DNA of 64,000 nt, taken from Nitrosopumilus sp. Lineage in GTDB: Archaea > Thermoproteota > Nitrososphaeria > Nitrososphaerales > Nitrosopumilaceae. The position numbers and the translations under genes are program-made. This document shows positions 9,542 through 61,990 of this stretch, in pieces (the first letter of the stretch is position 1; each line of letters starts with the position of its first letter). The notes under the pieces were generated by a model. That model was not told the origin of the DNA. It was given only the letters and a program-made list of their open reading frames with translations, and did not search any database. The stretch is taken from contig OZ240211.1 of the NCBI GenBank assembly GCA_965197525.1, positions 2,146,165 through 2,210,164 on the forward strand, given 5' to 3'.

Positions 9542-9901
9542 GGTTCTGTCTAATAAATGGGAATATAGCGTAAAAATTATTTTATATAAAATCACTTTTT
9601 TAGTTTTGAAAAGAAGACAAATCATATTAGACACATTCACATTGCAGGAAAAAGAGACGGAGATAACAACAACAAGATGGGGCGTCTAAACGGTGAGATA
9701 AGAGATTGTGAAAAAGTGTTTAGAGGTCTAAAAAAGTTTGATACGCCTCTTATTGATGGCATGAAAACATATTACAATTTCACAAAGAAACACGGGTCTT
9801 TGAAAGGAAAGACACCAGCAGAAGAAGCTATTGATTCAGAATGCGAGTTTGCACAAGCAAAATTCAGAATCAAATTTAGGTCTCTATAATCCGACAGAAC
9901 C
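9542..9901 (+). mobile_element. Internally deleted IS6-like element (MITE-sized) retaining the transposase C-terminus
   Basis: Ends GGTTCTGTCTAATAA (9542) and TAATCCGACAGAACC (9887-9901); fragment DNNNKMGRLNGEIRD..YYNF..HGSLKGKTPAE; no TSD seen. Confidence 0.7.
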
Positions 9902-23623: not shown

Positions 23624-24076
23624 ATGGGATACCATTGTATGAAGTCAGGTTCCGATATGCTTCTGGCCAGGATACTGGACGCCCCCGTGGGCCAGGTGGT
23701 CACCGTCCTAGGGGAGGTCCTTGACTGTGCTGTCCAGCTGCAGGTGGTGGAGCAGAACGCCGTTGCGCCCAATCAGTTCGTAAGGAAGGTCGTGATTACC
23801 GCGCGGGGGCTGCCTGTCATAAAGGCAAGCGTGAAGTTTGACTCCGCCGTGCTGCCTGAGTCCGTCATGGGCGAGCTTCTGAGGAAGAAGCGCGGCATCG
23901 GAACCATTCTCAACGTCAATGACATCGTCGCAACCAGAAGGATCATGTCCCTGGACCTGCATCCGGACCAAGGCATAACCTTGAGGGAGTACGAACTCGT
24001 TCACGGTGGGGCCGTGTGGTTTACCATATTTGAGGAGATAAACCTAGACAGTCTTGGTTCCGACAAGCACGGCTGA
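23624..24076 (+). CDS. Chorismate pyruvate-lyase/UTRA-fold-like protein
   Basis: R.VVI..GLPVI.A.V.F..GIG.IL..REY..I.EEI pattern. Confidence 0.55.
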   Translation: MGYHCMKSGSDMLLARILDAPVGQVVTVLGEVLDCAVQLQVVEQNAVAPNQFVRKVVITARGLPVIKASVKFDSAVLPESVMGELLRKKRGIGTILNVNDIVATRRIMSLDLHPDQGITLREYELVHGGAVWFTIFEEINLDSLGSDKHG

Positions 24077-24727
24077 AGAGCCCCACGTCAGATCCTGCCT
24101 GCGGGTTTCCAGTCCGTGATCTTCCATGGCCTCCTCGTACTCCTGCACCCAGTTTGAGGCCCTTATCAGGCGGGGCAGGTCGGCGAAGACCTGTCTCCAA
24201 CCTGGGGTGAAAAGGCCCGCGAGATTCAGCAGCCTGAAATAAAAATCCCACATTCTGCGCACCGGGCCGGCCTTTGGATATGTAAAGTCATGCAGAATTA
24301 TCTTCCCGCCGGCATCGAGGTGGTCAAGGCAGCTCCTGATCAGGGTATCTGGCGTGCAGTATTTTGGCAGGTATGACGCAGTGATGCAGGAGAACTTTTC
24401 CCCTAGGCTGAGCTTTTCGGCATCCTGATTTACAAAGGAGATGTTCCGGTGCGGGGCCGACTTCTCCATGGCCTTCTCAAGGTACCCTTGGGTAACGTCG
24501 ACGCCCACTATCTCCGCGTCCGGCAGCGTTTTTGCAATCTGTCTCGTAAGGATGCCCGTACCGCAGGCAAGATCCAACACGTTTTTTTCATCAGACATGT
24601 GCTCCAGAATCTTACGTTTCCAAAGGCCGTCCTTGCCAAAGGTGGTCCAGCTGACTATCCTGTCATACGAGCTGGCGTTGCTGTTAAAAAATTTCGGGAC
24701 CATGCACTTCGGACTCTCTTCGGCCAT
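24044..24727 (-). CDS. UbiE/MenG-like class I methyltransferase
   Basis: FFNSNASSYDRI..W..VLDLACGTG..GGKIILHDF. Confidence 0.85.
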   Translation of the reverse strand: MAEESPKCMVPKFFNSNASSYDRIVSWTTFGKDGLWKRKILEHMSDEKNVLDLACGTGILTRQIAKTLPDAEIVGVDVTQGYLEKAMEKSAPHRNISFVNQDAEKLSLGEKFSCITASYLPKYCTPDTLIRSCLDHLDAGGKIILHDFTYPKAGPVRRMWDFYFRLLNLAGLFTPGWRQVFADLPRLIRASNWVQEYEEAMEDHGLETRRQDLTWGSSAVLVGTKTV

Positions 24728-24791
24728 GCTTACTGCTGGTTTTTTTGTCTAAAATAGTTTGTGAGTAGGGGTTCTGTGAAGTTATCGAGGG

Positions 24792-25985
24792 TTAACCCCT
24801 ATAACTTGACTTTGACATATCGACTATTCGGATTACCAATGGTGTGCCGGGTTCCGTCATCGCTGGCTCAAAAGTGCCAGACTGCGCTTCATCTATGTCA
24901 TCTCTACTACCCCTAAACCTAGGGGGCAGCTTGCGTGATATGTTCATGGCAGCGATAATATCCCTGTCCATAAACAAACCGCAATTATTACACGACATTT
25001 TACGATGTTGTTGCATGTCCTCTTGGAGTCTCTTTCCGCATTTCGGACACTGCGTGCTCGTGTTTCTTGGGTCTACTGTCTCGACTGGAGGCAACCCGAC
25101 CCATTGGGCTTTGTATTCTATTTGGCGTTGTAACTCGTAGAATTGCCACCCGTTCAATCTACGCCTGTACTTGTTACCTTGACTGTTTCCTTTTCGGTAC
25201 AATTTTCTTATTCCTTTCAGGTTTTCCATGACGATTGCAGTCTTGTTTTTGACTGCGTTGTCTACTATATCCTTTGAGATTCTGTGGATGTACTGCTTTG
25301 TTCTATTGCTCATTCGTCTCTGTCTTTGTTTCCAGAATTGACCTTTCTTTCTGCGATCATTTCTGTGGAATCCTGCCCTAGCGTGTATTGTGTTCTCCTT
25401 TATGGATAACAGTTTGTTTGTCTTGTAGACTGTCACCTCTTTCTCGTTCCCACACGTCACATTTCTTAGGTTTCTGTCTATTCCCACTTGATTGGTGCAC
25501 TCTATCTCTTGTACTGTTTTTGAAACACAAAGACTGATGTTGAGAGCAGTCAATGAAAACGAGCGCACCGTCAAGGCGGGATCAGATAGGATTTTTTGGG
25601 TGTGAACGTTGAGTAAAATGTTGATTGGGTTATGTTTCTTGTATGGGATTGTGAGTAGTGCACCGCTGTGTTGTATACCGTAACAGTTTGTCATAAAGGG
25701 ATTTTTGACTATTGGGTCTCTTATTCTGACACCTCGTTTGATTGATTGTCTTCTGTTTGATAACATGCCTGCAGCTCGTGATATTGCATTTAGTTTGTAT
25801 GAAGACAGGATGTCATAATTACGTAATTCATGATAACATAATATGGACAACCTCTTCATATTGTGAGTGTCTTCTTTCAATCCTGTCTTGATGCAATGAT
25901 TGACCATCTTTGTGAATATAGCCATCATATCCATTAGATCAGAGTTCGGCGTATATTTCTGTGATATTGACTTTATCGCTTTCAA
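24792..25985 (-). CDS. tnpB: TnpB RNA-guided endonuclease
   Basis: RuvC GIDRN, VMENL, MDRDIIAAMNI; Zn finger CPKC..CNNC; stop codon lies within the TIR. Confidence 0.95.
   Translation of the reverse strand: MKAIKSISQKYTPNSDLMDMMAIFTKMVNHCIKTGLKEDTHNMKRLSILCYHELRNYDILSSYKLNAISRAAGMLSNRRQSIKRGVRIRDPIVKNPFMTNCYGIQHSGALLTIPYKKHNPINILLNVHTQKILSDPALTVRSFSLTALNISLCVSKTVQEIECTNQVGIDRNLRNVTCGNEKEVTVYKTNKLLSIKENTIHARAGFHRNDRRKKGQFWKQRQRRMSNRTKQYIHRISKDIVDNAVKNKTAIVMENLKGIRKLYRKGNSQGNKYRRRLNGWQFYELQRQIEYKAQWVGLPPVETVDPRNTSTQCPKCGKRLQEDMQQHRKMSCNNCGLFMDRDIIAAMNISRKLPPRFRGSRDDIDEAQSGTFEPAMTEPGTPLVIRIVDMSKSSYRG
24795..24945 (-). ncRNA. Candidate omegaRNA scaffold overlapping the tnpB 3' end
   Basis: Conserved with 61135-61265; covarying hairpin CTGGC/GCCAG versus CCGGT/ACCGG. 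Confidence 0.6.
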
Positions 25986-26171
25986 CGAATATCTTACGGT
26001 TTAGAGGTTTATACAATTTAGGGATTAACAGATAACCCTCGATAACTTCACAGAACCTGAGTAGGCAACTTGGCAAACGGCAAGACCGTGCTGGAGAAAA
26101 ACACAGACTGATAAAGTGGGCGGATCCTGAGATCCCTGGAAACAGAGGCAGGATCACACCCCATAGTGAAA

Positions 26172-38714: not shown

Positions 38715-38734
38715 GGTTCTGTCAAGTTAACGAG
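38715..38734 (+). mobile_element. Solo IS6-type terminal repeat
   Basis: GGTTCTGTCAAGTTAACGAG matches the TIR at 24770 at 18/20. Confidence 0.7.
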
Positions 38735-38743
38735 TGCTGAGCC

Positions 38744-46396: not shown

Positions 46397-47733
46397 TGTT
46401 AATTATCCAACATAAACTGCTATACATAGTAAGCGACAAAAAATTGTGTTTATTTTTCCAGCGAGATCACAAGTAGCATAAAACTAGAAATTGTAATTAG
46501 TTAGGATCAAAACAGATTTTCATGACTTTCAAATACGGTTAATTCATCTCCAATAGTAACATACTCAAATATTTCACCCCAGATAACAAACCACAATAAT
46601 GGATTAATCCAAACGCAAAGAAGTGTTAGAGTGTGTGTAAGTGTAATTACTTTAAATAAATTATCAGAGATATTACAATGATGGGTTGTTTTTGATGTTG
46701 TGAGATTTTGCAGTCGTTTTAGAGTTTGTGGGTAGACTACCTATCTTTTTTGGTTGGTTTGGTACTGGTTTTTTTGGTTGATGATAATGTACGGACTTTT
46801 CTAGTGGGTTTAGTGACAGAATCTTTGACTTCTTTAGGAATCAGAGTTTTAGAACCATCTGTAGAACGTCTTGAACTTCTATCAAAAAATGCTTTTCGTA
46901 ATAGGTTATCTATGTACGCTCTTTTTAAGGATTTTCTGGATTTTAGTATGTTCGAGTACAACATCAGATAGGAATAGTGTTTCGCCAAGAAGATGGTTGG
47001 GCACATACCTATACGAACCCTATCACTCAGTACTATTCTTCACCCATTCATTATGGTTAATTGCAGTTAGGTTTCTGAACACGAAAACTAACGTATGTAC
47101 GAAGCAAACAAAGATACACCAGAAGCTTGTAACAGTCGGAGGAAAGATCATGTTCGGCACAATAATGACGTGCATGCTCACGTGGGACAATCATGAATTG
47201 AATTGGTTCAAAAAACTGATAGAAACGTTCTGGGCGACCTAACCTTCTACAACCCGACAACATAAAAAGTTATTACTTGTTTGCTTTGTATAAAATACAT
47301 TCATGAAAAAGAAGATAACCTCCGAATGCTAGGTAGATTCGAATGGGGCAGAAATGACTGTTATTACACACTCTGTATATGACGAATCAACCTCAAGCAG
47401 GGTTGACGATGTGTTCACTTTTCAAAAAGAACTCCTAACTGATCCTCCAGGCGTGAGCTATAATTGTATAAAATACGAAAAGAACAAATCCCGATAATGT
47501 TACAGAACCCTTTTTAGTACAATTTAAGTAGTCTGTAAATAATATAAAAGTATGAACAGAGGAGAACAAACAATACAGACTCCACATGTGTATCAGATTG
47601 TCTTGGTAAAGGATGAGGATGGTCGTGTAGTAGTTACATGTCCCGAACTCCTTGGCATGGTTACGGATGGCATCAATGAACATGAGGCAAAGAAGAACGC
47701 ACGATATGCGATTTCAGACATGCTGGATTCATT

Positions 47734-49338
47734 AGAACTTATGAGTAATCTCGTAAAAGATCGATTTTTTTGAAACTGTGTGTATAAATAACACCAAAAT
47801 CACAGATTGTTCCCTCAATTCAGGCACGGGACTCTAAACTCGAACTGTTACGTAATCTCTGATTTCTCAGATTGCCATAGATGCATTAACACTGCTGTCA
47901 AAAATTTATGATTTAGCCTGCTAAAACGAAAAAATACAAGTCATATTGTTGTCAAAGCAAGAAATAAAGCGCTTGCAAAAAGAGATTAAAATTCTCAGAG
48001 AGAGAAACAAGCGTAAGGACGAGATCATCTTACACGAACGAGGTCTCTGGAATACTCGGAACGGTTCTGAATCCGGAGTTGCAGGACAGGCAGCCACCAT
48101 GCACCGCGTAGAAGTGTTCGATGAGATTGTTAATAATGATGCAAAGATTCATGATGCCACATTAACGAATGTAGCAAAGTTTCAGTATATACTTGCCAGA
48201 GTTACACTGTGCATGAAACAAGACAACAAATCTCTCTTGTTCAGAGATAATGATGATAGGTCATCTGATGCAGGAAATCGCTGCAAGCTGTATCTCAGAC
48301 ACGCACTACTCATGGCATTGATGTATAAAAAAGGCAATCCCACACAGGGAGCCCTTGCAGCATTATTTGGAGTGGATCAAGCTGCAATATCACGATACAT
48401 CAAAGTCATAGATTCAATGTTGAGTATAGTGTTGCCTACAGCCAACAACATTTCAAAAGATATAGCAAACGCAAAAACAAAAGAAGAGTTTAAGAAAATA
48501 ATGCCAGGATCTGATGGAGGTACTGGCATGATTGACGGCACTCATTGTCCTGTGGACAGACCTAGTAACAAACAGATGAGAAGCATAACATATTCTGGCA
48601 AGAAGAAAAAATTTACGTTTAACACCACTGTATGCATAAACGAGAACGGAGTCATTGTTGCAGCATCAAACAGTACTTTGGGATCTATCCACGACATTAC
48701 GTTACTCAGAGAGAGTCCGCTGCCATTTGGGATATGGTGGGATAAGATGTGCAGTGAGGATACCCCTGAAGAGGATCGTGTACATCTCTTTACGGACTTG
48801 GGTTACAAGGGAATTGAAAAGGAATTGCCAGGCACAATTACCCAACAGCCACACAAGAGAAGCAAGAATCATAGACATTTTACACCAGAAGAGAAAAAAG
48901 AGAACCACAACGTCAATTCCATCATGGTAAAGGTAGAGCACAGTATTGGCAGGCTAAAACGATACGGTAGATTGGTTGCCCCATACAGTGGAACAGTCAG
49001 TGAATTTAATAATGAATTTAACATCATAACCGGACTTGTAAACTTGGATCTCTTGTGGGATAAGATGGAGAAGGGACCGCCTGTGAATGATAATCCAAGA
49101 CCGGTAATAGACTGGAATAAGACGAATACTGCTACCACCAGTCAAGATACCGCTACATAGTTAATTCCGTGCACATTGCAGTGCTGCAAGTCTGCGCATG
49201 AATTTCATGCATGGTATAATGAAAATATCAAACATATTAGATTGTCGTCTTGATAATGCGCTGTATGGTGTATTTTTATTATTTTGACTTTGTGACTGTA
49301 GTTTTTTTTCTTATATGTTGAGATTACTCATAAGTTCT
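47734..49338 (+). mobile_element. IS5-family (ISL2-group-like) element
   Basis: 19-bp perfect TIR AGAACTTATGAGTAATCTC; 3-bp TSD ATT at 47731-47733 and 49339-49341. Confidence 0.9.
47946..49160 (+). CDS. DDE_Tnp_4-type transposase
   Basis: MIDGTH, YSGKKK, GSIHDITL, DLGYKG, KVEHSIGRLK. Confidence 0.92.
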   Translation: MLSKQEIKRLQKEIKILRERNKRKDEIILHERGLWNTRNGSESGVAGQAATMHRVEVFDEIVNNDAKIHDATLTNVAKFQYILARVTLCMKQDNKSLLFRDNDDRSSDAGNRCKLYLRHALLMALMYKKGNPTQGALAALFGVDQAAISRYIKVIDSMLSIVLPTANNISKDIANAKTKEEFKKIMPGSDGGTGMIDGTHCPVDRPSNKQMRSITYSGKKKKFTFNTTVCINENGVIVAASNSTLGSIHDITLLRESPLPFGIWWDKMCSEDTPEEDRVHLFTDLGYKGIEKELPGTITQQPHKRSKNHRHFTPEEKKENHNVNSIMVKVEHSIGRLKRYGRLVAPYSGTVSEFNNEFNIITGLVNLDLLWDKMEKGPPVNDNPRPVIDWNKTNTATTSQDTAT

Positions 49339-59853: not shown

Positions 59854-60024
59854 ATGCTGTATCATTTCGAACTACAAATGGCAGGCGTTATTCTTCTTAC
59901 CGCTATGGTAGTTTGTGGTATTTCAATATGGATTAGACGACGGAGAGCTGAAAATAACCCGCAAACGTCATTAAACGAACCTAGTGACCAGCCGTCATCT
60001 GATACAACTGGTTCGTTGGATTAA
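59854..60024 (+). CDS. Small membrane protein whose last codons are replaced by the TnpB element
   Basis: MLYHFELQMAGVILLTAMVVCGISIWIRRRR..DTT; the empty-site frame would end DTTNR*. Confidence 0.55.
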   Translation: MLYHFELQMAGVILLTAMVVCGISIWIRRRRAENNPQTSLNEPSDQPSSDTTGSLD

Positions 60025-61340
60025 CTGGTGTTAATCAGAAATTATACTCATAACACTAAATATAGATAGCCTTAAACCGTATAATACTTGTTGAGAGCAA
60101 TAAAGTCAATAGCACAAAAACATACACCAAACTCTGACCTAATGGACATGATGATCACGTTCACAGACATGGTTAACCGTTGTATCAAGATAGGGCTAAA
60201 GGAAGATACCCACAACATGAAACGGTTGTCTATGTTATGCTATCACGAATTACGTCACTACGACATCCTATCTTCATACAAACTCAATGCAATATCACGA
60301 GCTGCTGGCATCCTGGCAAACAGAGATCAGTCAGTCAAACGTGGCCTCAAAGTAAAAGATCCAATTATCAAAAATCCGTTTATCACTAATTGTTACCGTA
60401 TAAAACACAACGGCGCCTTACTCACAATTCCATACAAGCCAAGAAATCCAATTAACATCCTACTCGACGAACATACTCAAAAAATACTGTCTGATCCCGC
60501 CTTGGCAGTGCGCTCGTTTTCATTGACTGCTCTCAACATCAGTCTTTGTATTTCAAAAAAAGTACAGGAGATAGAGTGCGCCAAGACAGTAGGAGTAGAC
60601 AGAAACCTTAGAAACGTCACATGCGGAAATGAAGAAGAGGTAACATTCTACAAAACCAACAAGTTACTCTCAATCAAAGAGAACACAATACATGCCAGAT
60701 CTGGTTTCCGTAGAAACGACAAAAGAAAGAAAGGTCAATTCTACAACGAAAAACAGAGAAGAATGTCAAACAGAACAAAACAGTACATACACAGAATCTC
60801 AAAAAACATAGTAGACAATGCAGTCAAGAAAAAGGCTGTCATTGTTCTAGAAAATCTAAAGGGAATTAGAAAACTGTACAGAAAAGGAAACGGTCAAGGC
60901 AACAAATACAGACGTAGATTGAACGGATGGCAATTCTTTGAACTACAAAGACAAATAGAATACAAAGCCCAATGGGTCGGGCTACCTGTAAAAACAGTAG
61001 ACCCAAAAAACACGAGCACGCAGTGTCCGCAATGCGGAAAGAGACTCCAAGAGGACATGCAACAACATCGTAAATCATCGTGTAATAATTGCGGTTTATT
61101 TATGGACAGGGATATCATCGCTGCCATGAACATATCACGCAAACTGTCTCCTAGGTTTAGAGATAGTAGAGATGGCATACATGAAGCGCAGTCCGGTGTT
61201 TTTGAACCGGCGATGGCGGAACCCTGCAGACCGGTAATCCGAATAGTCGATATGTCAAAGTCGAGTAGTCAATGTGTTGTTGATGGTTGTGGAATCTGAC
61301 ATGATCCTCCGCAGTCAACACCCGCTAACCCAACAGAACC
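60010..61340 (+). mobile_element. Second TnpB-only element with TIRs of about 15 bp and an 8-bp TSD
   Basis: GGTTC-GTTGGATTA at 60010-60023 versus TAACCCAACAGAACC at 61326-61340; ATACAACT at 60002-60009 and 61341-61348. Confidence 0.9.
60088..61299 (+). CDS. tnpB: TnpB RNA-guided endonuclease, paralog of 24792-25985
   Basis: GVDRN, VLENL, MDRDIIAAMNI; CPQC..CNNC. Confidence 0.95.
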   Translation: MLRAIKSIAQKHTPNSDLMDMMITFTDMVNRCIKIGLKEDTHNMKRLSMLCYHELRHYDILSSYKLNAISRAAGILANRDQSVKRGLKVKDPIIKNPFITNCYRIKHNGALLTIPYKPRNPINILLDEHTQKILSDPALAVRSFSLTALNISLCISKKVQEIECAKTVGVDRNLRNVTCGNEEEVTFYKTNKLLSIKENTIHARSGFRRNDKRKKGQFYNEKQRRMSNRTKQYIHRISKNIVDNAVKKKAVIVLENLKGIRKLYRKGNGQGNKYRRRLNGWQFFELQRQIEYKAQWVGLPVKTVDPKNTSTQCPQCGKRLQEDMQQHRKSSCNNCGLFMDRDIIAAMNISRKLSPRFRDSRDGIHEAQSGVFEPAMAEPCRPVIRIVDMSKSSSQCVVDGCGI

Positions 61341-61381
61341 ATACAACTAATAGATAAAATACTTGATGATTCGTATATTAT

Positions 61382-61990
61382 GTGATGCATCTAGTCGTTG
61401 GAATTACTGGCAGTACCGGCGTGATTTACGGTATTCGTTTACTCGAAGTCCTAAAAAAATTAAACATAAAGACACATCTTGTTATCTCTGAATGGGGTGA
61501 GAAGTGTATCCCTATGGAGACTGATTACACAGCTGCTAGTGTAAAGTCGCTTGCAACTGCAACGTCTGATGAAAAGAACATGGCATCAAGTATCTCAAGT
61601 GGAACTCATAGAACTGACGGTATGATAGTTGCTCCCTGTAGCATGAAGACGTTATCTGCAATTGCAACTGGTTATGATAATACACTTGTTGCACGAGCTG
61701 CTGGCGTAACAATAAAAGAATCACGGCGACTAATTTTAATGGTAAGAGAATCTCCGTTCTCTGCCATACATCTTGAAAATATGTTGAAACTATCTCGACT
61801 AGGTATCGTCATCATGCCTCCTGTCTCCGAGTTTTACACAAAGCCTCAATCAATTGATGATATGATTAATCACACAATTGGAAAATGTTTGGATCAGTTT
61901 GGGATAGAGCACAATTTGTCTCCGCGTTGGGGCTCTAACAATACTACTGATAATCATACCAACAACCACGCCAACAACAATCCGTCGTGA
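61382..61990 (+). CDS. ubiX: Flavin prenyltransferase
   Basis: VGITGSTG..YG, SSG, APCSMKTL, RESP, FY.KP. Confidence 0.95.
   Translation: MMHLVVGITGSTGVIYGIRLLEVLKKLNIKTHLVISEWGEKCIPMETDYTAASVKSLATATSDEKNMASSISSGTHRTDGMIVAPCSMKTLSAIATGYDNTLVARAAGVTIKESRRLILMVRESPFSAIHLENMLKLSRLGIVIMPPVSEFYTKPQSIDDMINHTIGKCLDQFGIEHNLSPRWGSNNTTDNHTNNHANNNPS

What the first reader, a model, noticed from the sequence alone, without database searches (positions are those of the whole stretch)
60002..61348. Second independent TIR-TnpB insertion with a different TIR subtype
TSD ATACAACT is perfect, and removing the element restores a small membrane ORF ending DTTNR*, which confirms the boundaries. Its TIR resembles the IS6 remnant at 9887-9901, while element 1 resembles the solo end at 38715. 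The two diverged tnpB paralogs therefore appear matched to two helper-transposase end types, implying a long-standing association or repeated capture.
Basis: partly seen in the sequence, partly recalled or inferred. Interest (0 to 1): 0.85.

Follow-up and report, generated by a model that had tools for sequence, protein, structure and literature searches.

The report
TnpB nuclease riding IS6-like transposon ends
This is a real 1.3-kb insertion of a small archaeal mobile element that carries only the RNA-guided nuclease TnpB between IS6-like inverted ends, one of about 33 full-length copies in this genome; nearly all copies sit in one orientation next to a short T-T-purine motif, so the nuclease seems to influence where this cut-or-copy-type transposon lands or survives.

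Summary
The element spans 60010-61340 (1331 bp). It has imperfect 29-nt TIRs and a perfect 8-bp TSD, ATACAACT (60002-9 and 61341-8). Its only gene is an intact tnpB (60088-61299). A sponge metatranscriptome contig from a ~98% identical strain joins the two flanks exactly, minus the element and one TSD copy, so a natural empty site exists.

The element is not unusual within this genome. The scan has flagged the same family many times on other windows. I count about 33 full-length tnpB copies, about 15 truncated or MITE copies and 130 family ends.

- 9887-9901 is a true DDE-transposase remnant, but it matches this TIR only over the outer 15 nt.
- The solo end at 38715 is closer to another subtype than to element 1.
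- The A and B TIR types, the two in this window, have no transposase-bearing partner in this genome.

The broader idea holds. TnpB clades track TIR types. Type C ends are identical to ends beside SWIM-DDE (IS6-like) transposase genes. Relatives as distant as Bathyarchaeota keep GGTTCTGT ends and 8-bp TSDs.

New here:
- 37 of 43 tnpB-module elements have W-T-R directly 5' of the TSD on the tnpB-upstream side only. No transposase-bearing element does (0 of 14 sides).
- All deletion derivatives keep the omega-RNA part.

Verdict: a new variant of the published DDE-associated TnpB kind.

The parts
59999..60001 (+). CTG, the trinucleotide directly 5' of the left TSD copy. It sits at the position of the family-wide W-T-R (TAM-like) motif. 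This copy has T-R but C instead of W.
   Evidence: Position -10 is T in 29/31 copies and position -9 is R in 30/31.
60002..60009 (.). Left copy of the 8-bp target-site duplication, ATACAACT.
   Evidence: The empty-site contig carries one copy only.
60010..60038 (+). Left terminal inverted repeat, a degenerate A-type. Against the family consensus it has a 1-nt deletion at position 6 and three substitutions.
60056..60066 (+). TATA-like box (CTAAATATAGA) about 27 nt before the tnpB start. Putative internal promoter (inferred).
   Evidence: Read. Not tested.
60088..61299 (+). tnpB, 403 aa, an intact open frame. RuvC motifs are GVDRN, VLENL and MDRDII. The zinc ribbon is CPQC...CNNC.
61089..61266 (+). 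Conserved structured RNA block (omega-RNA scaffold) overlapping the 3' end of tnpB.
   Evidence: Alignment A1 and fold: 19 pairs, 13 of them with compensatory changes. Contigs of all four runs diverge after 61266.
61267..61311 (+). Subfamily-specific tail between the scaffold and the right TIR. It is predicted to pair with the inner part of the right TIR.
   Evidence: The signal is weak for any single sequence.
61312..61340 (-). Right terminal inverted repeat. The reverse complement starts GGTTCTGTTGGGTTAGCGGGTG.
61341..61348 (.). Right copy of the TSD, ATACAACT. It would also be the first 8 nt of the predicted flank-derived guide.
   Evidence: The guide role is inferred.
59854..60024 (+). Small membrane ORF whose last codons are replaced by the insertion. 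The 47-49-aa orthologues in relatives lie directly upstream of ubiX.
24770..26057 (-). Element 1 of the window: a B-type tnpB element of 1288 bp. In tnpB orientation its TSD is CCTACTCA and TTG lies 5' of it.
9542..9901 (+). Remnant of an IS6-like autonomous element. It has a left-type end at 9542, a DDE fragment at 9605-9829 and a right end at 9901. The flanks do not match.

Best explanation
This is a non-autonomous transposon with the ends and 8-bp target duplication of archaeal IS6-like elements. Its only cargo is a TnpB nuclease gene and the omega-RNA encoded over the gene's 3' end.

How it moves (inferred). It has no transposase. It is most likely moved in trans by the SWIM-zinc-finger/DDE (IS6-like) transposases of autonomous elements in the same genome, which share the GGTTCTGT terminus.

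What TnpB does (inferred). The omega-RNA is read through the right TIR into the flank, so its guide is the TSD plus the downstream bases. The W-T-R motif that abuts the TSD on the other side would be the TAM. TnpB could then cut exactly the empty site (TAM + TSD + right flank) and favour retention of the copy or homing into empty alleles. The filled site would be spared, because the right TIR ends in ACC.

State of the window copy. It landed 41 nt upstream of ubiX, in the last codons of a small ORF. Its tnpB is intact but its TIRs have decayed.

My confidence by step: element identity and boundaries about 0.95; IS6-like helper about 0.75; W-T-R as TAM with a flank-derived guide about 0.55.
For: Shown:
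- TIRs, the TSD and a natural empty site.
- About 33 full-length copies; 22 of the 31 with both ends defined have TSDs.
- The TnpB family assignment and catalytic motifs.
- No Y1 TnpA anywhere in the genome.
- Autonomous elements at 746475-748444 and 1956395-1960520 have the same first 18 nt of TIR and 8-bp TSDs. They encode a 378-aa SWIM+DDE protein (or a frameshifted copy of it). Its best family match is IS6: NF033587, E 2e-29, full profile length; PF13610 above its cut-off.
- An exact C-type TIR lies beside a DDE remnant at 919007.
- 8 of the 12 other tnpB-positive genomes hold this DDE, against 54 of 150 sampled overall.
- The omega scaffold shows covariation in 13 of 19 pairs.

Target motif:
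- W-T-R lies 5' of the left TSD in 28/31 full copies. That is binomial p 8e-27 against a background of 8.8%.
- It also occurs in 9/12 MITE derivatives that keep the tnpB 3' end.
- It occurs in 15/18 TSD-flanked copies in other genomes, including two Bathyarchaeota.
- The mirror motif on the right flank appears in only 7/48.
- It is absent from both sides of 7 transposase-bearing elements, 0/14.
- C-type tnpB copies share TIRs with those elements and still show the motif in 4/4.
- It is not a promoter feature: it follows TATA-like hexamers in only 11.5% of cases.

Other:
- All 15 truncated copies keep the 3' omega-RNA part and none keeps only the 5' part.
Against: - The conserved, covarying scaffold ends at 61266. 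That is 74 nt before this element's end, and 32-98 nt before it in other subfamilies. In characterised TnpBs the guide follows the scaffold directly. A flank-derived guide therefore needs a variable insert to be tolerated. The predicted tail/inner-TIR hairpin is only weakly supported (z from -0.06 to -3.6).
- No helper with A-type or B-type inner TIRs exists in this genome.
- The transposase scores below NCBIfam's IS6 cut-off (102.8 against 125). Harmer and Hall (PMC6807381) argue that archaeal 'IS6' elements are not true IS6/IS26 members.
- IS26-type transposition is replicative and leaves no empty donor site, which would make restorative homing pointless.
- Four small MITEs derived from DDE elements have W-T-R on one side. 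The motif is therefore not strictly exclusive to omega-RNA carriers.
- This copy's motif is CTG, not WTG.
- Copies within one genome are related, and the sample of autonomous elements is small (7).
Confidence: 0.68

Rival explanations
1. The one-sided W-T-R motif is the target preference of a transposase or transpososome that serves the tnpB elements. TnpB would be passive cargo with no influence on where copies sit.
For: - DDE transposases can have sequence preferences.
- The helper for A- and B-type ends is unidentified.
- Four small MITEs derived from DDE elements show W-T-R on one side.
- The left and right TIRs differ in their inner parts, so an asymmetric complex is possible.
Against: - 0 of 14 sides of seven transposase-bearing elements have the motif.
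- C-type tnpB copies share TIRs with two of those elements, yet 4/4 have the motif.
- The motif sits exactly where a TAM must sit for a guide that starts at the first flank base.
- All deletion derivatives keep the omega-RNA region.
Confidence: 0.2
2. This is a frozen IS605-type cassette. The omega-RNA ends at 61266 and the next 16-20 nt, which are element-internal and fixed per subfamily, are the guide. TnpB would then target some fixed sequence, such as another element or a regulatory site, and not the empty site.
For: - Scaffold conservation and covariation stop at 61266, and everything beyond is subfamily-specific.
- Contigs in four runs diverge at that point.
- An earlier first-reader note (e1-5476426) proposed the same idea.
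Against: - Genome-wide searches with each subfamily's 18 nt after the block found only the elements themselves, plus a few 3-mismatch hits with no W-T-R upstream.
- This reading leaves the one-sided W-T-R motif next to the TSD unexplained.
- The tail's 5' part is complementary to the inner right TIR in 12 of 13 subfamilies and relatives. That looks structural, not guide-like.
Confidence: 0.12
3. A canonical IS200/IS605-type tnpB element nested by chance inside an unrelated MITE.
For: None, beyond the general rule that prokaryotic tnpB usually lies in IS200/IS605 or IS607 elements.
Against: - The same architecture occurs in about 33 full and about 15 truncated copies here, and in at least 6 other genomes of 2 or 3 archaeal phyla. 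TnpB clades track TIR types.
- The genome has no Y1 TnpA.
- Only about 78 nt upstream of tnpB and 41 nt downstream lie inside the TIR-bounded element, which leaves no room for separate IS605 ends.
Confidence: 0.01
4. The helper is an IS1595-family transposase, which also makes 8-bp TSDs. An earlier follow-up concluded this for a look-alike element in another genome.
For: - Two IS1595-like genes exist in this genome.
- One lies next to an A-type copy.
- One chimeric element joins an IS1595-like N-terminus to a tnpB 3' end.
Against: - Complete IS1595-like elements in relatives are bounded by GGGAATTAT... TIRs, not GGTTCTGT.
- IS1595-like genes were found in none of the 12 other tnpB-positive genomes.
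- The adjacency seen here is nested insertion.
Confidence: 0.03

Closest known systems
DDE-transposase-associated TnpB branches (DDE-1 to DDE-6) and solo TnpBs with matching ends (Altae-Tran et al. 2023, PNAS, PMC10691335)
   Same: - tnpB lies between inverted terminal repeats.
- The tnpB 3' end is within 250 bp of the transposon end (41 bp here).
- Solo copies have ends like those of transposase-bearing elements, which implies mobilisation in trans.
   Different: - The paper's text names only IS630 as a DDE partner. A 2026 review (PMC13565253) lists ISL2, IS630 and IS1031. IS6-like SWIM-DDE is not named, and the supplement was not readable, so I could not test whether this clade is one of DDE-1 to DDE-5.
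- Here tnpB and the transposase were never found inside one TIR pair.
- The copy number (about 33 full-length copies in 2.2 Mb) exceeds what that paper describes as typical.
- That text does not report the one-sided W-T-R motif next to a non-specific 8-bp TSD.
Fanzor1 in eukaryotic TIR/DDE transposons (Bao and Jurka 2013; Jiang et al. 2023, PMC10530073)
   Same: - A TnpB-family nuclease travels as cargo of DDE transposons with TIRs and TSDs.
- The guide RNA overlaps the right TIR.
- In some cases the TAM agrees with the insertion site.
   Different: - Fanzor1 is eukaryotic or viral and has a rearranged RuvC-II glutamate.
- In Fanzor systems the TAM can overlap a sequence-specific TSD such as TA. 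Here the TSD is arbitrary and the motif lies just outside it.
IS1341-type solo-tnpB elements of IS200/IS605 (ISDra2, IS608 relatives)
   Same: - TnpB with an omega-RNA over its 3' end.
- Only one gene.
- A TAM-like motif upstream of the element's left end.
   Different: IS200/IS605 elements have no TIRs and no TSD, and a Y1 TnpA moves them as single strands. Here there are 26-29-nt TIRs and an 8-bp TSD, and the genome has no Y1 TnpA.
IS6 family (IS26, IS257) and archaeal 'IS6' elements (Varani et al. 2021, PMC7986276; Harmer and Hall 2019, PMC6807381)
   Same: - GG tips with a cTGTt motif. GGTTCTGTTG... matches IS257-like ends as I recall them.
- An 8-bp TSD.
- A DDE domain that matches PF13610 in the autonomous relatives.
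- MITE derivatives are known in the family.
   Different: - The reviews record only one IS6 member with a passenger gene and none with tnpB.
- The transposases here are 378-383 aa with an N-terminal SWIM finger and zinc ribbon, and they score below NCBIfam's IS6 cut-off.
- The TIRs are longer.
- The mechanism in archaea is untested.

Membership tests
TnpB / OMEGA RNA-guided nuclease | Split RuvC domain with a D-E-D triad, plus the zinc-ribbon (TNB) domain | tested here: met
   PF07282 scores 1.4e-21. NF040570 scores 128.5 bits against a cut-off of 100. The alignment to solved TnpB/Cas12f chains covers VLENL and DRDII...NI. The RuvC-I motif GVDRN was read from the sequence.
TnpB / OMEGA RNA-guided nuclease | Structured omega-RNA overlapping the gene's 3' end | tested here: met
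   In alignment A1, 13 of 19 predicted pairs keep pairing through changes on both sides across 21 sequences from 6 genomes. There was no Rfam match.
TnpB / OMEGA RNA-guided nuclease | Guide taken from DNA flanking the right end, with RNA-guided, TAM-dependent cleavage | not testable with these tools
   Only indirect evidence: the one-sided W-T-R motif. The scaffold ends 74 nt before the element's end.
IS200/IS605 (including the IS1341 group) | No terminal inverted repeats, no target duplication, and a Y1 HUH TnpA as transposase | tested here: not met
   The element has 29-nt TIRs and an 8-bp TSD. PF01797 found nothing in a genome that is 99% complete.
IS6 / IS26 family | Short TIRs with GG tips and a cTGTt motif, and an 8-bp TSD | tested here: met
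   The ends read GGTTCTGT..., and 8-bp TSDs flank 22 of 31 copies. The motif is as described in PMC7986276.
IS6 / IS26 family | Encodes an IS6-type DDE transposase | tested here: not met
   This element has no transposase. Autonomous elements with the same termini encode a SWIM+DDE protein. PF13610 scores 42-53 bits against a cut-off of 27, but NF033587 scores 102.8-120.6 bits against a cut-off of 125. They are IS6-like, and strict membership is not shown.
IS6 / IS26 family | Replicative cointegrate mechanism | not testable with these tools
   9 of 31 copies lack matching flanks, but no reciprocal or inverted TSD partners were found.
DDE-associated TnpB (Altae-Tran 2023) | Inverted terminal repeats, with the tnpB 3' end within 250 bp of the transposon end | tested here: met
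   The stop codon is at 61299 and the element ends at 61340.
DDE-associated TnpB (Altae-Tran 2023) | Solo TnpB ends nearly identical to the ends of transposase-bearing elements | tested here: inconclusive
   Met for C-type copies: 26 of 26 nt at 919007, beside a DDE remnant. For this A-type copy only the outer 8-15 nt are shared with any DDE-linked end.
DDE-associated TnpB (Altae-Tran 2023) | Placement in one of the named branches DDE-1 to DDE-6 | not tested
   The supplementary tables are not held.

The most novel reading that the evidence does not exclude
TnpB, or its RNP, takes part in integration itself. It would read the W-T-R TAM and position the IS6-like DDE transposase so that each new copy is born directly next to a usable TAM, in the orientation that makes its read-through guide match its own empty site. 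This would be a CRISPR-less, natural coupling of a TnpB nuclease to DDE transposition, conceptually upstream of Cas12k transposons.
Probability: 0.12. Interest if true: 0.9.

Novelty: new variant of a known kind. Interest (0 to 1): 0.58.

Why it matters
TnpB is the ancestor of Cas12, and its known biology is tied to IS200/IS605 and IS607 elements, which excise without scars. Whether and how it serves DDE transposons in prokaryotes is an open point. A 2026 review (PMC13565253) discusses why the association is rare.

This family offers a large natural data set: about 50 insertions in one genome, plus relatives in other genera and in Bathyarchaeota. In that set, an arbitrary 8-bp TSD is preceded on one side only by a T-T-purine motif. 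Transposase-only elements with the same ends lack the motif, and every deletion derivative keeps the omega-RNA.

That turns 'does TnpB matter to a DDE transposon?' into concrete tests: a TAM screen, guide mapping, and transposition with and without the module. It also predicts a compact archaeal nuclease of about 400 aa with a short TAM.

If the motif proves to be only a transposase preference, the element is an ordinary non-autonomous IS with cargo.

Tried and rejected
1. IS1595-like transposase as helper. Rejected.
2. Internal fixed guide. A search of the 18 nt after the scaffold in each subfamily found no targets with the motif. Kept as a rival.
3. W-T-R as part of archaeal promoters. Rejected: it follows TATA-like hexamers in 11.5% of cases. 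A weaker TATA-like signal at -20 to -15 and the closeness to downstream genes are real but separate.
4. Reciprocal or inverted TSD partners for the 9 copies with unmatched flanks. None found.
5. Rfam. No family matched in 60900-61420.
6. Forty SWIM-DDE loci from other genomes were fetched with 900-bp flanks. Only 3 gave TIR+TSD, because many elements are larger or have other ends such as GGTTCTGGGAAAT... and GGCAACTGGGAAG.... The autonomous sample therefore stays small.
7. Depth along the element in RNA contigs. The 3' part is far deeper than the 5' part in X4, but contig depth cannot rank parts of a gene, and many copies and MITEs share that part. I did not use it as evidence of omega-RNA expression.
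8. Habitat. X4 and X5 are sponge metatranscriptomes with small word shares. After laying, X4 holds the flank at about 98% identity. I take this only as a related strain occurring in that sample.
9. Literature searches for TnpB with IS6, Thaumarchaeota or Nitrosopumilus found no report. The library is incomplete.
10. The supplement of PMC10691335 is not held.
Full report
**What is at 60002-61348**

Read directly, ATACAACT occurs at 60002-60009 and at 61341-61348. Between them lies a 1331-bp element, 60010-61340. Its ends are inverted repeats of about 29 nt. The left end reads GGTTC-GTTGGATTAACTGGTGTTAATCAG. The reverse complement of the right end reads GGTTCTGTTGGGTTAGCGGGTGTTGACTG.

The only gene is a 403-aa ORF at 60088-61299. 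It is a TnpB:
- Pfam PF07282 scores 1.4e-21.
- NCBIfam guided_TnpB scores 128.5 bits against a cut-off of 100.

The ORF also stays open with the insertion, and its tail is not conserved, so that argument is weak.

**The boundaries are proven in other ways**

- A tblastn search of the whole 2.21-Mb genome finds about 33 full-length copies of this gene and about 15 fragments.
- 31 full-length copies have both ends defined. 22 of them carry a different perfect or 1-mismatch 8-bp duplication.
- A contig in an RNA library from a sponge metatranscriptome (run X4, a different study) joins 60003 to 61343. It skips 1339 nt, which is the element plus one copy of the duplication. Its flank differs at 8 of 358 positions. 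This is a natural empty site in a close strain.
- More distant relatives (72-74% nt identity) have purP, the small ORF and ubiX with nothing in between.

**What kind of element it is**

The genome has no Y1 TnpA, so an IS200/IS605 mechanism is excluded, as the TIRs and TSD already imply. GGTTCTGT... tips with an 8-bp duplication are the marks of IS6-type elements (PMC7986276).

The genome holds seven loci of a 378-383-aa protein with a SWIM finger, a zinc ribbon and a DDE domain:
- PF13610 scores above its cut-off.
- The best NCBIfam match is IS6, 2e-29 to 7e-35 over the whole profile, but 102.8-120.6 bits against a cut-off of 125.

Complete elements with this gene or a frameshifted copy of it (746475-748444 and 1956395-1960520) have TIRs that share their first 18 nt with C-type tnpB elements, and they have 8-bp TSDs. 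A DDE remnant at 918635-919007 ends in a TIR identical over 26 nt to the C-type tnpB TIR. In other genomes, L036, L042 and L050 show the same architecture.

IS1595-like transposases also exist here, but they are not the helper:
- Complete copies in relatives end in GGGAATTAT....
- They do not co-occur with the tnpB.

The SWIM-DDE gene is present in 8 of the 12 other tnpB-positive genomes, against 54 of 150 sampled overall. Related genomes are not independent samples.

A scan of the genome finds 130 ends of this family. TnpB clades coincide with TIR types: A has 5 copies, B 16, C 3, E 3 and D 2, plus singletons. This is expected for lineages of one element.

More telling, a TnpB only 62% identical (1649168-1650609) carries C-type ends. 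Ends can therefore be exchanged or re-acquired. C-type, D-like and E-like ends have counterparts next to DDE genes or remnants. To this extent the idea that tnpB lineages are matched to helper end types holds.

The specific pairings do not hold:
- 9887-9901 is a genuine remnant, with a DDE fragment at 9605-9829. It shares only the outer ~15 nt with this element, and its inner part is E-like.
- The solo end at 38715 is 2-3 mismatches from the 248639 and 992252 types and 6 of 26 from element 1.
- A and B ends, the two types in the window, occur only on tnpB elements.

This copy's left TIR is also decayed. 6 of its roughly 12 private differences lie in the 56 nt of TIRs.

The association is old. 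Copies in another genus (G094, G077), in two other Nitrosopumilus MAGs and in two Bathyarchaeota MAGs have the same kind of ends and 8-bp TSDs. Their TnpBs are 37-85% identical to this one.

**New observation: a one-sided target motif**

I oriented every copy by tnpB and looked at the three bases directly 5' of the left TSD copy:
- Position -11 is W (T in 23, A in 7).
- Position -10 is T in 29 of 31.
- Position -9 is R in 30 of 31.
- The chi-square p values are 9e-7, 8e-13 and 6e-7.

Counts of W-T-R:
- 28 of 31 full copies, against a genomic frequency of 8.8% (binomial p 8e-27).
- 9 of 12 MITE-like derivatives.
- 15 of 18 TSD-flanked copies in other genomes.
- The mirror image to the right of the right TSD appears in only 7 of 48.
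- Seven transposase-bearing elements with the same kind of ends show it on neither side, 0 of 14.
- The four tnpB copies that share C-type ends with two of those elements all have it.

The motif is not a promoter feature. Three nucleotides after TATA-like hexamers upstream of genes, it occurs at 11.5%.

The position is exactly where a TAM must lie if the guide starts at the first base after the right TIR. In the empty site the sequence reads W-T-R, then the TSD, then the right flank. Inferring a TAM from conservation next to the left end is the standard approach for TnpB (from my knowledge of Karvelis 2021 and Altae-Tran 2021).

All 15 truncated copies keep the 3' part of tnpB and none keeps only the 5' part.

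**The RNA**

An alignment of 21 right-hand regions from six genomes gives a consensus fold with 19 pairs. 13 of them are kept through changes on both sides. They include a 7-bp hairpin and a 7-bp long-range helix that closes at about 61257. Conservation ends at 61266, and contigs in all four runs diverge there.

From 61266 to the element's end there are 74 nt here and 32-98 nt in other subfamilies. In 12 of 13 cases the 5' part of this tail is predicted to pair with the inner part of the right TIR, leaving the outer 10-18 nt free. The z-scores are all negative but modest.

This is the main difficulty for a flank-derived guide. Characterised TnpB guides follow the scaffold directly. Fanzor RNAs do overlap the TIR (PMC10530073). 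An internal fixed guide is therefore kept as a rival, although no target for it was found and it would leave the motif unexplained.

**How it most likely works**

Shown:
- The element's structure, its copy number and the natural empty site.
- The intact nuclease motifs and the structured RNA.
- The one-sided motif.

Inferred:
- A SWIM-DDE transposase acting in trans inserts the element and makes the 8-bp duplication.
- Transcription through the right TIR yields a guide made of the TSD plus the flank.
- TnpB, reading W-T-R, can cut the empty allele but not the filled one. This would favour retention after excision, or homing after DNA exchange.
- MITEs that keep the omega-RNA could use TnpB in trans.

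Simple retention would leave many motif-less copies unless excision far outpaces re-integration. A direct role of TnpB in choosing the integration site is therefore not excluded. I give that reading 0.12.

**Comparison with what is known**

Altae-Tran et al. 2023 describe six DDE-associated TnpB branches with inverted repeats, and solo TnpBs with matching ends. The general kind is therefore published. IS630 is named in that text, and a 2026 review lists ISL2, IS630 and IS1031. IS6-like partners are not named, and the IS6 reviews record no tnpB cargo. I could not read the supplement.

This scan has already noted the family on many other windows of this genome and in other genomes. One earlier follow-up (e1-2558213) reached the same closest-known family. 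None of the notes shown to me reported the motif statistics for this genome.

**Verdict**

This is a new variant of a known kind, of moderate interest because of the testable TAM-like signature.

Noticed in passing
window 60010-60038 and 61312-61340: This copy's TIRs carry about 6 of its roughly 12 private differences from the A-family consensus, including a 1-nt deletion at position 6 of the left TIR. The 1.27 kb between the TIRs carries about 6. The copy is probably no longer mobile although its tnpB is intact.
   Followed up: partly
window 61340-61382 and 24727-24770; genome-wide: Both window copies end 41-42 nt upstream of a co-oriented host gene start (ubiX; ORF 24044-24727). Genome-wide, 14 of 27 TSD-flanked insertions have an ORF of at least 100 aa starting within -60 to +120 nt downstream in the same orientation. 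Random positions give 10.7%. A weak TATA-like signal lies at -20 to -15 of the left flank. This may reflect promoter-proximal landing, read-through into host genes, or tolerance of intergenic insertions.
   Followed up: partly
window 47482-47509 (-): A solo G-type family end (GGTTCTGTAACATTATCGGGATTT...) lies about 440 bp upstream of an IS5/Harbinger-like DDE_Tnp_4 transposase gene at 47946-49160 (PF13359, 2e-22). That gene is unrelated to the tnpB family.
   Followed up: no
window 38715-38742 (+): A solo left-type end. It is closest to the ends of the elements at genome 248639 and 992252 (2-3 mismatches). No tnpB or DDE remnant was detected inside it by tblastn.
   Followed up: partly
genome G000:C1:1394563-1396016: A chimeric 1454-bp element with D-type TIRs, a perfect TSD and TTG. 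It joins the upstream region and first 79 codons of an IS1595-like transposase to the tnpB 3' (omega-RNA) part at the first scaffold hairpin. A nested family end lies near its left side.
   Followed up: partly
genome G000:C1:583727-588872, 699962-703151, 1956395-1960520: These SWIM-DDE elements are 3.2-5.1 kb long, so they carry 2-4 kb of extra DNA of unknown content. Two of them lack matching TSDs.
   Followed up: no
genome-wide, 9 of 31 full copies (e.g. 182311-183642, 189527-190855): These copies have good TIRs but unrelated 8-nt flanks. No reciprocal or inverted partner flanks were found, so simple recombination between two copies or a single IS26-type inversion does not explain them.
   Followed up: partly
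genome small MITEs 883991-884841, 572469-573303, 338241-338411, 1583610-1583748: These MITEs derive from DDE elements, not from tnpB. Each has W-T-R on one side, where about 17% would be expected for either of two sides. Only one has a TSD. This is unexplained and weakens the exclusivity of the motif.
   Followed up: partly
L091-L093, L095, L096 (genomes G083, G100, G125): IS1595-like elements of 1.3-2.1 kb with GGGAATTAT... TIRs and perfect 8-bp TSDs are common in one genus of the family. In the sample of that genus, 9 of 9 genomes hold the gene.
   Followed up: partly
window 60906-61307, runs X1, X3, X4, X5: In both the DNA and RNA contig sets the omega-RNA part of the element is covered far more deeply than the 5' part of tnpB. 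Many contigs branch at 61266 into different tails. This reflects many related copies and subfamilies in the sponge-associated communities. Contig depth cannot show expression.
   Followed up: no
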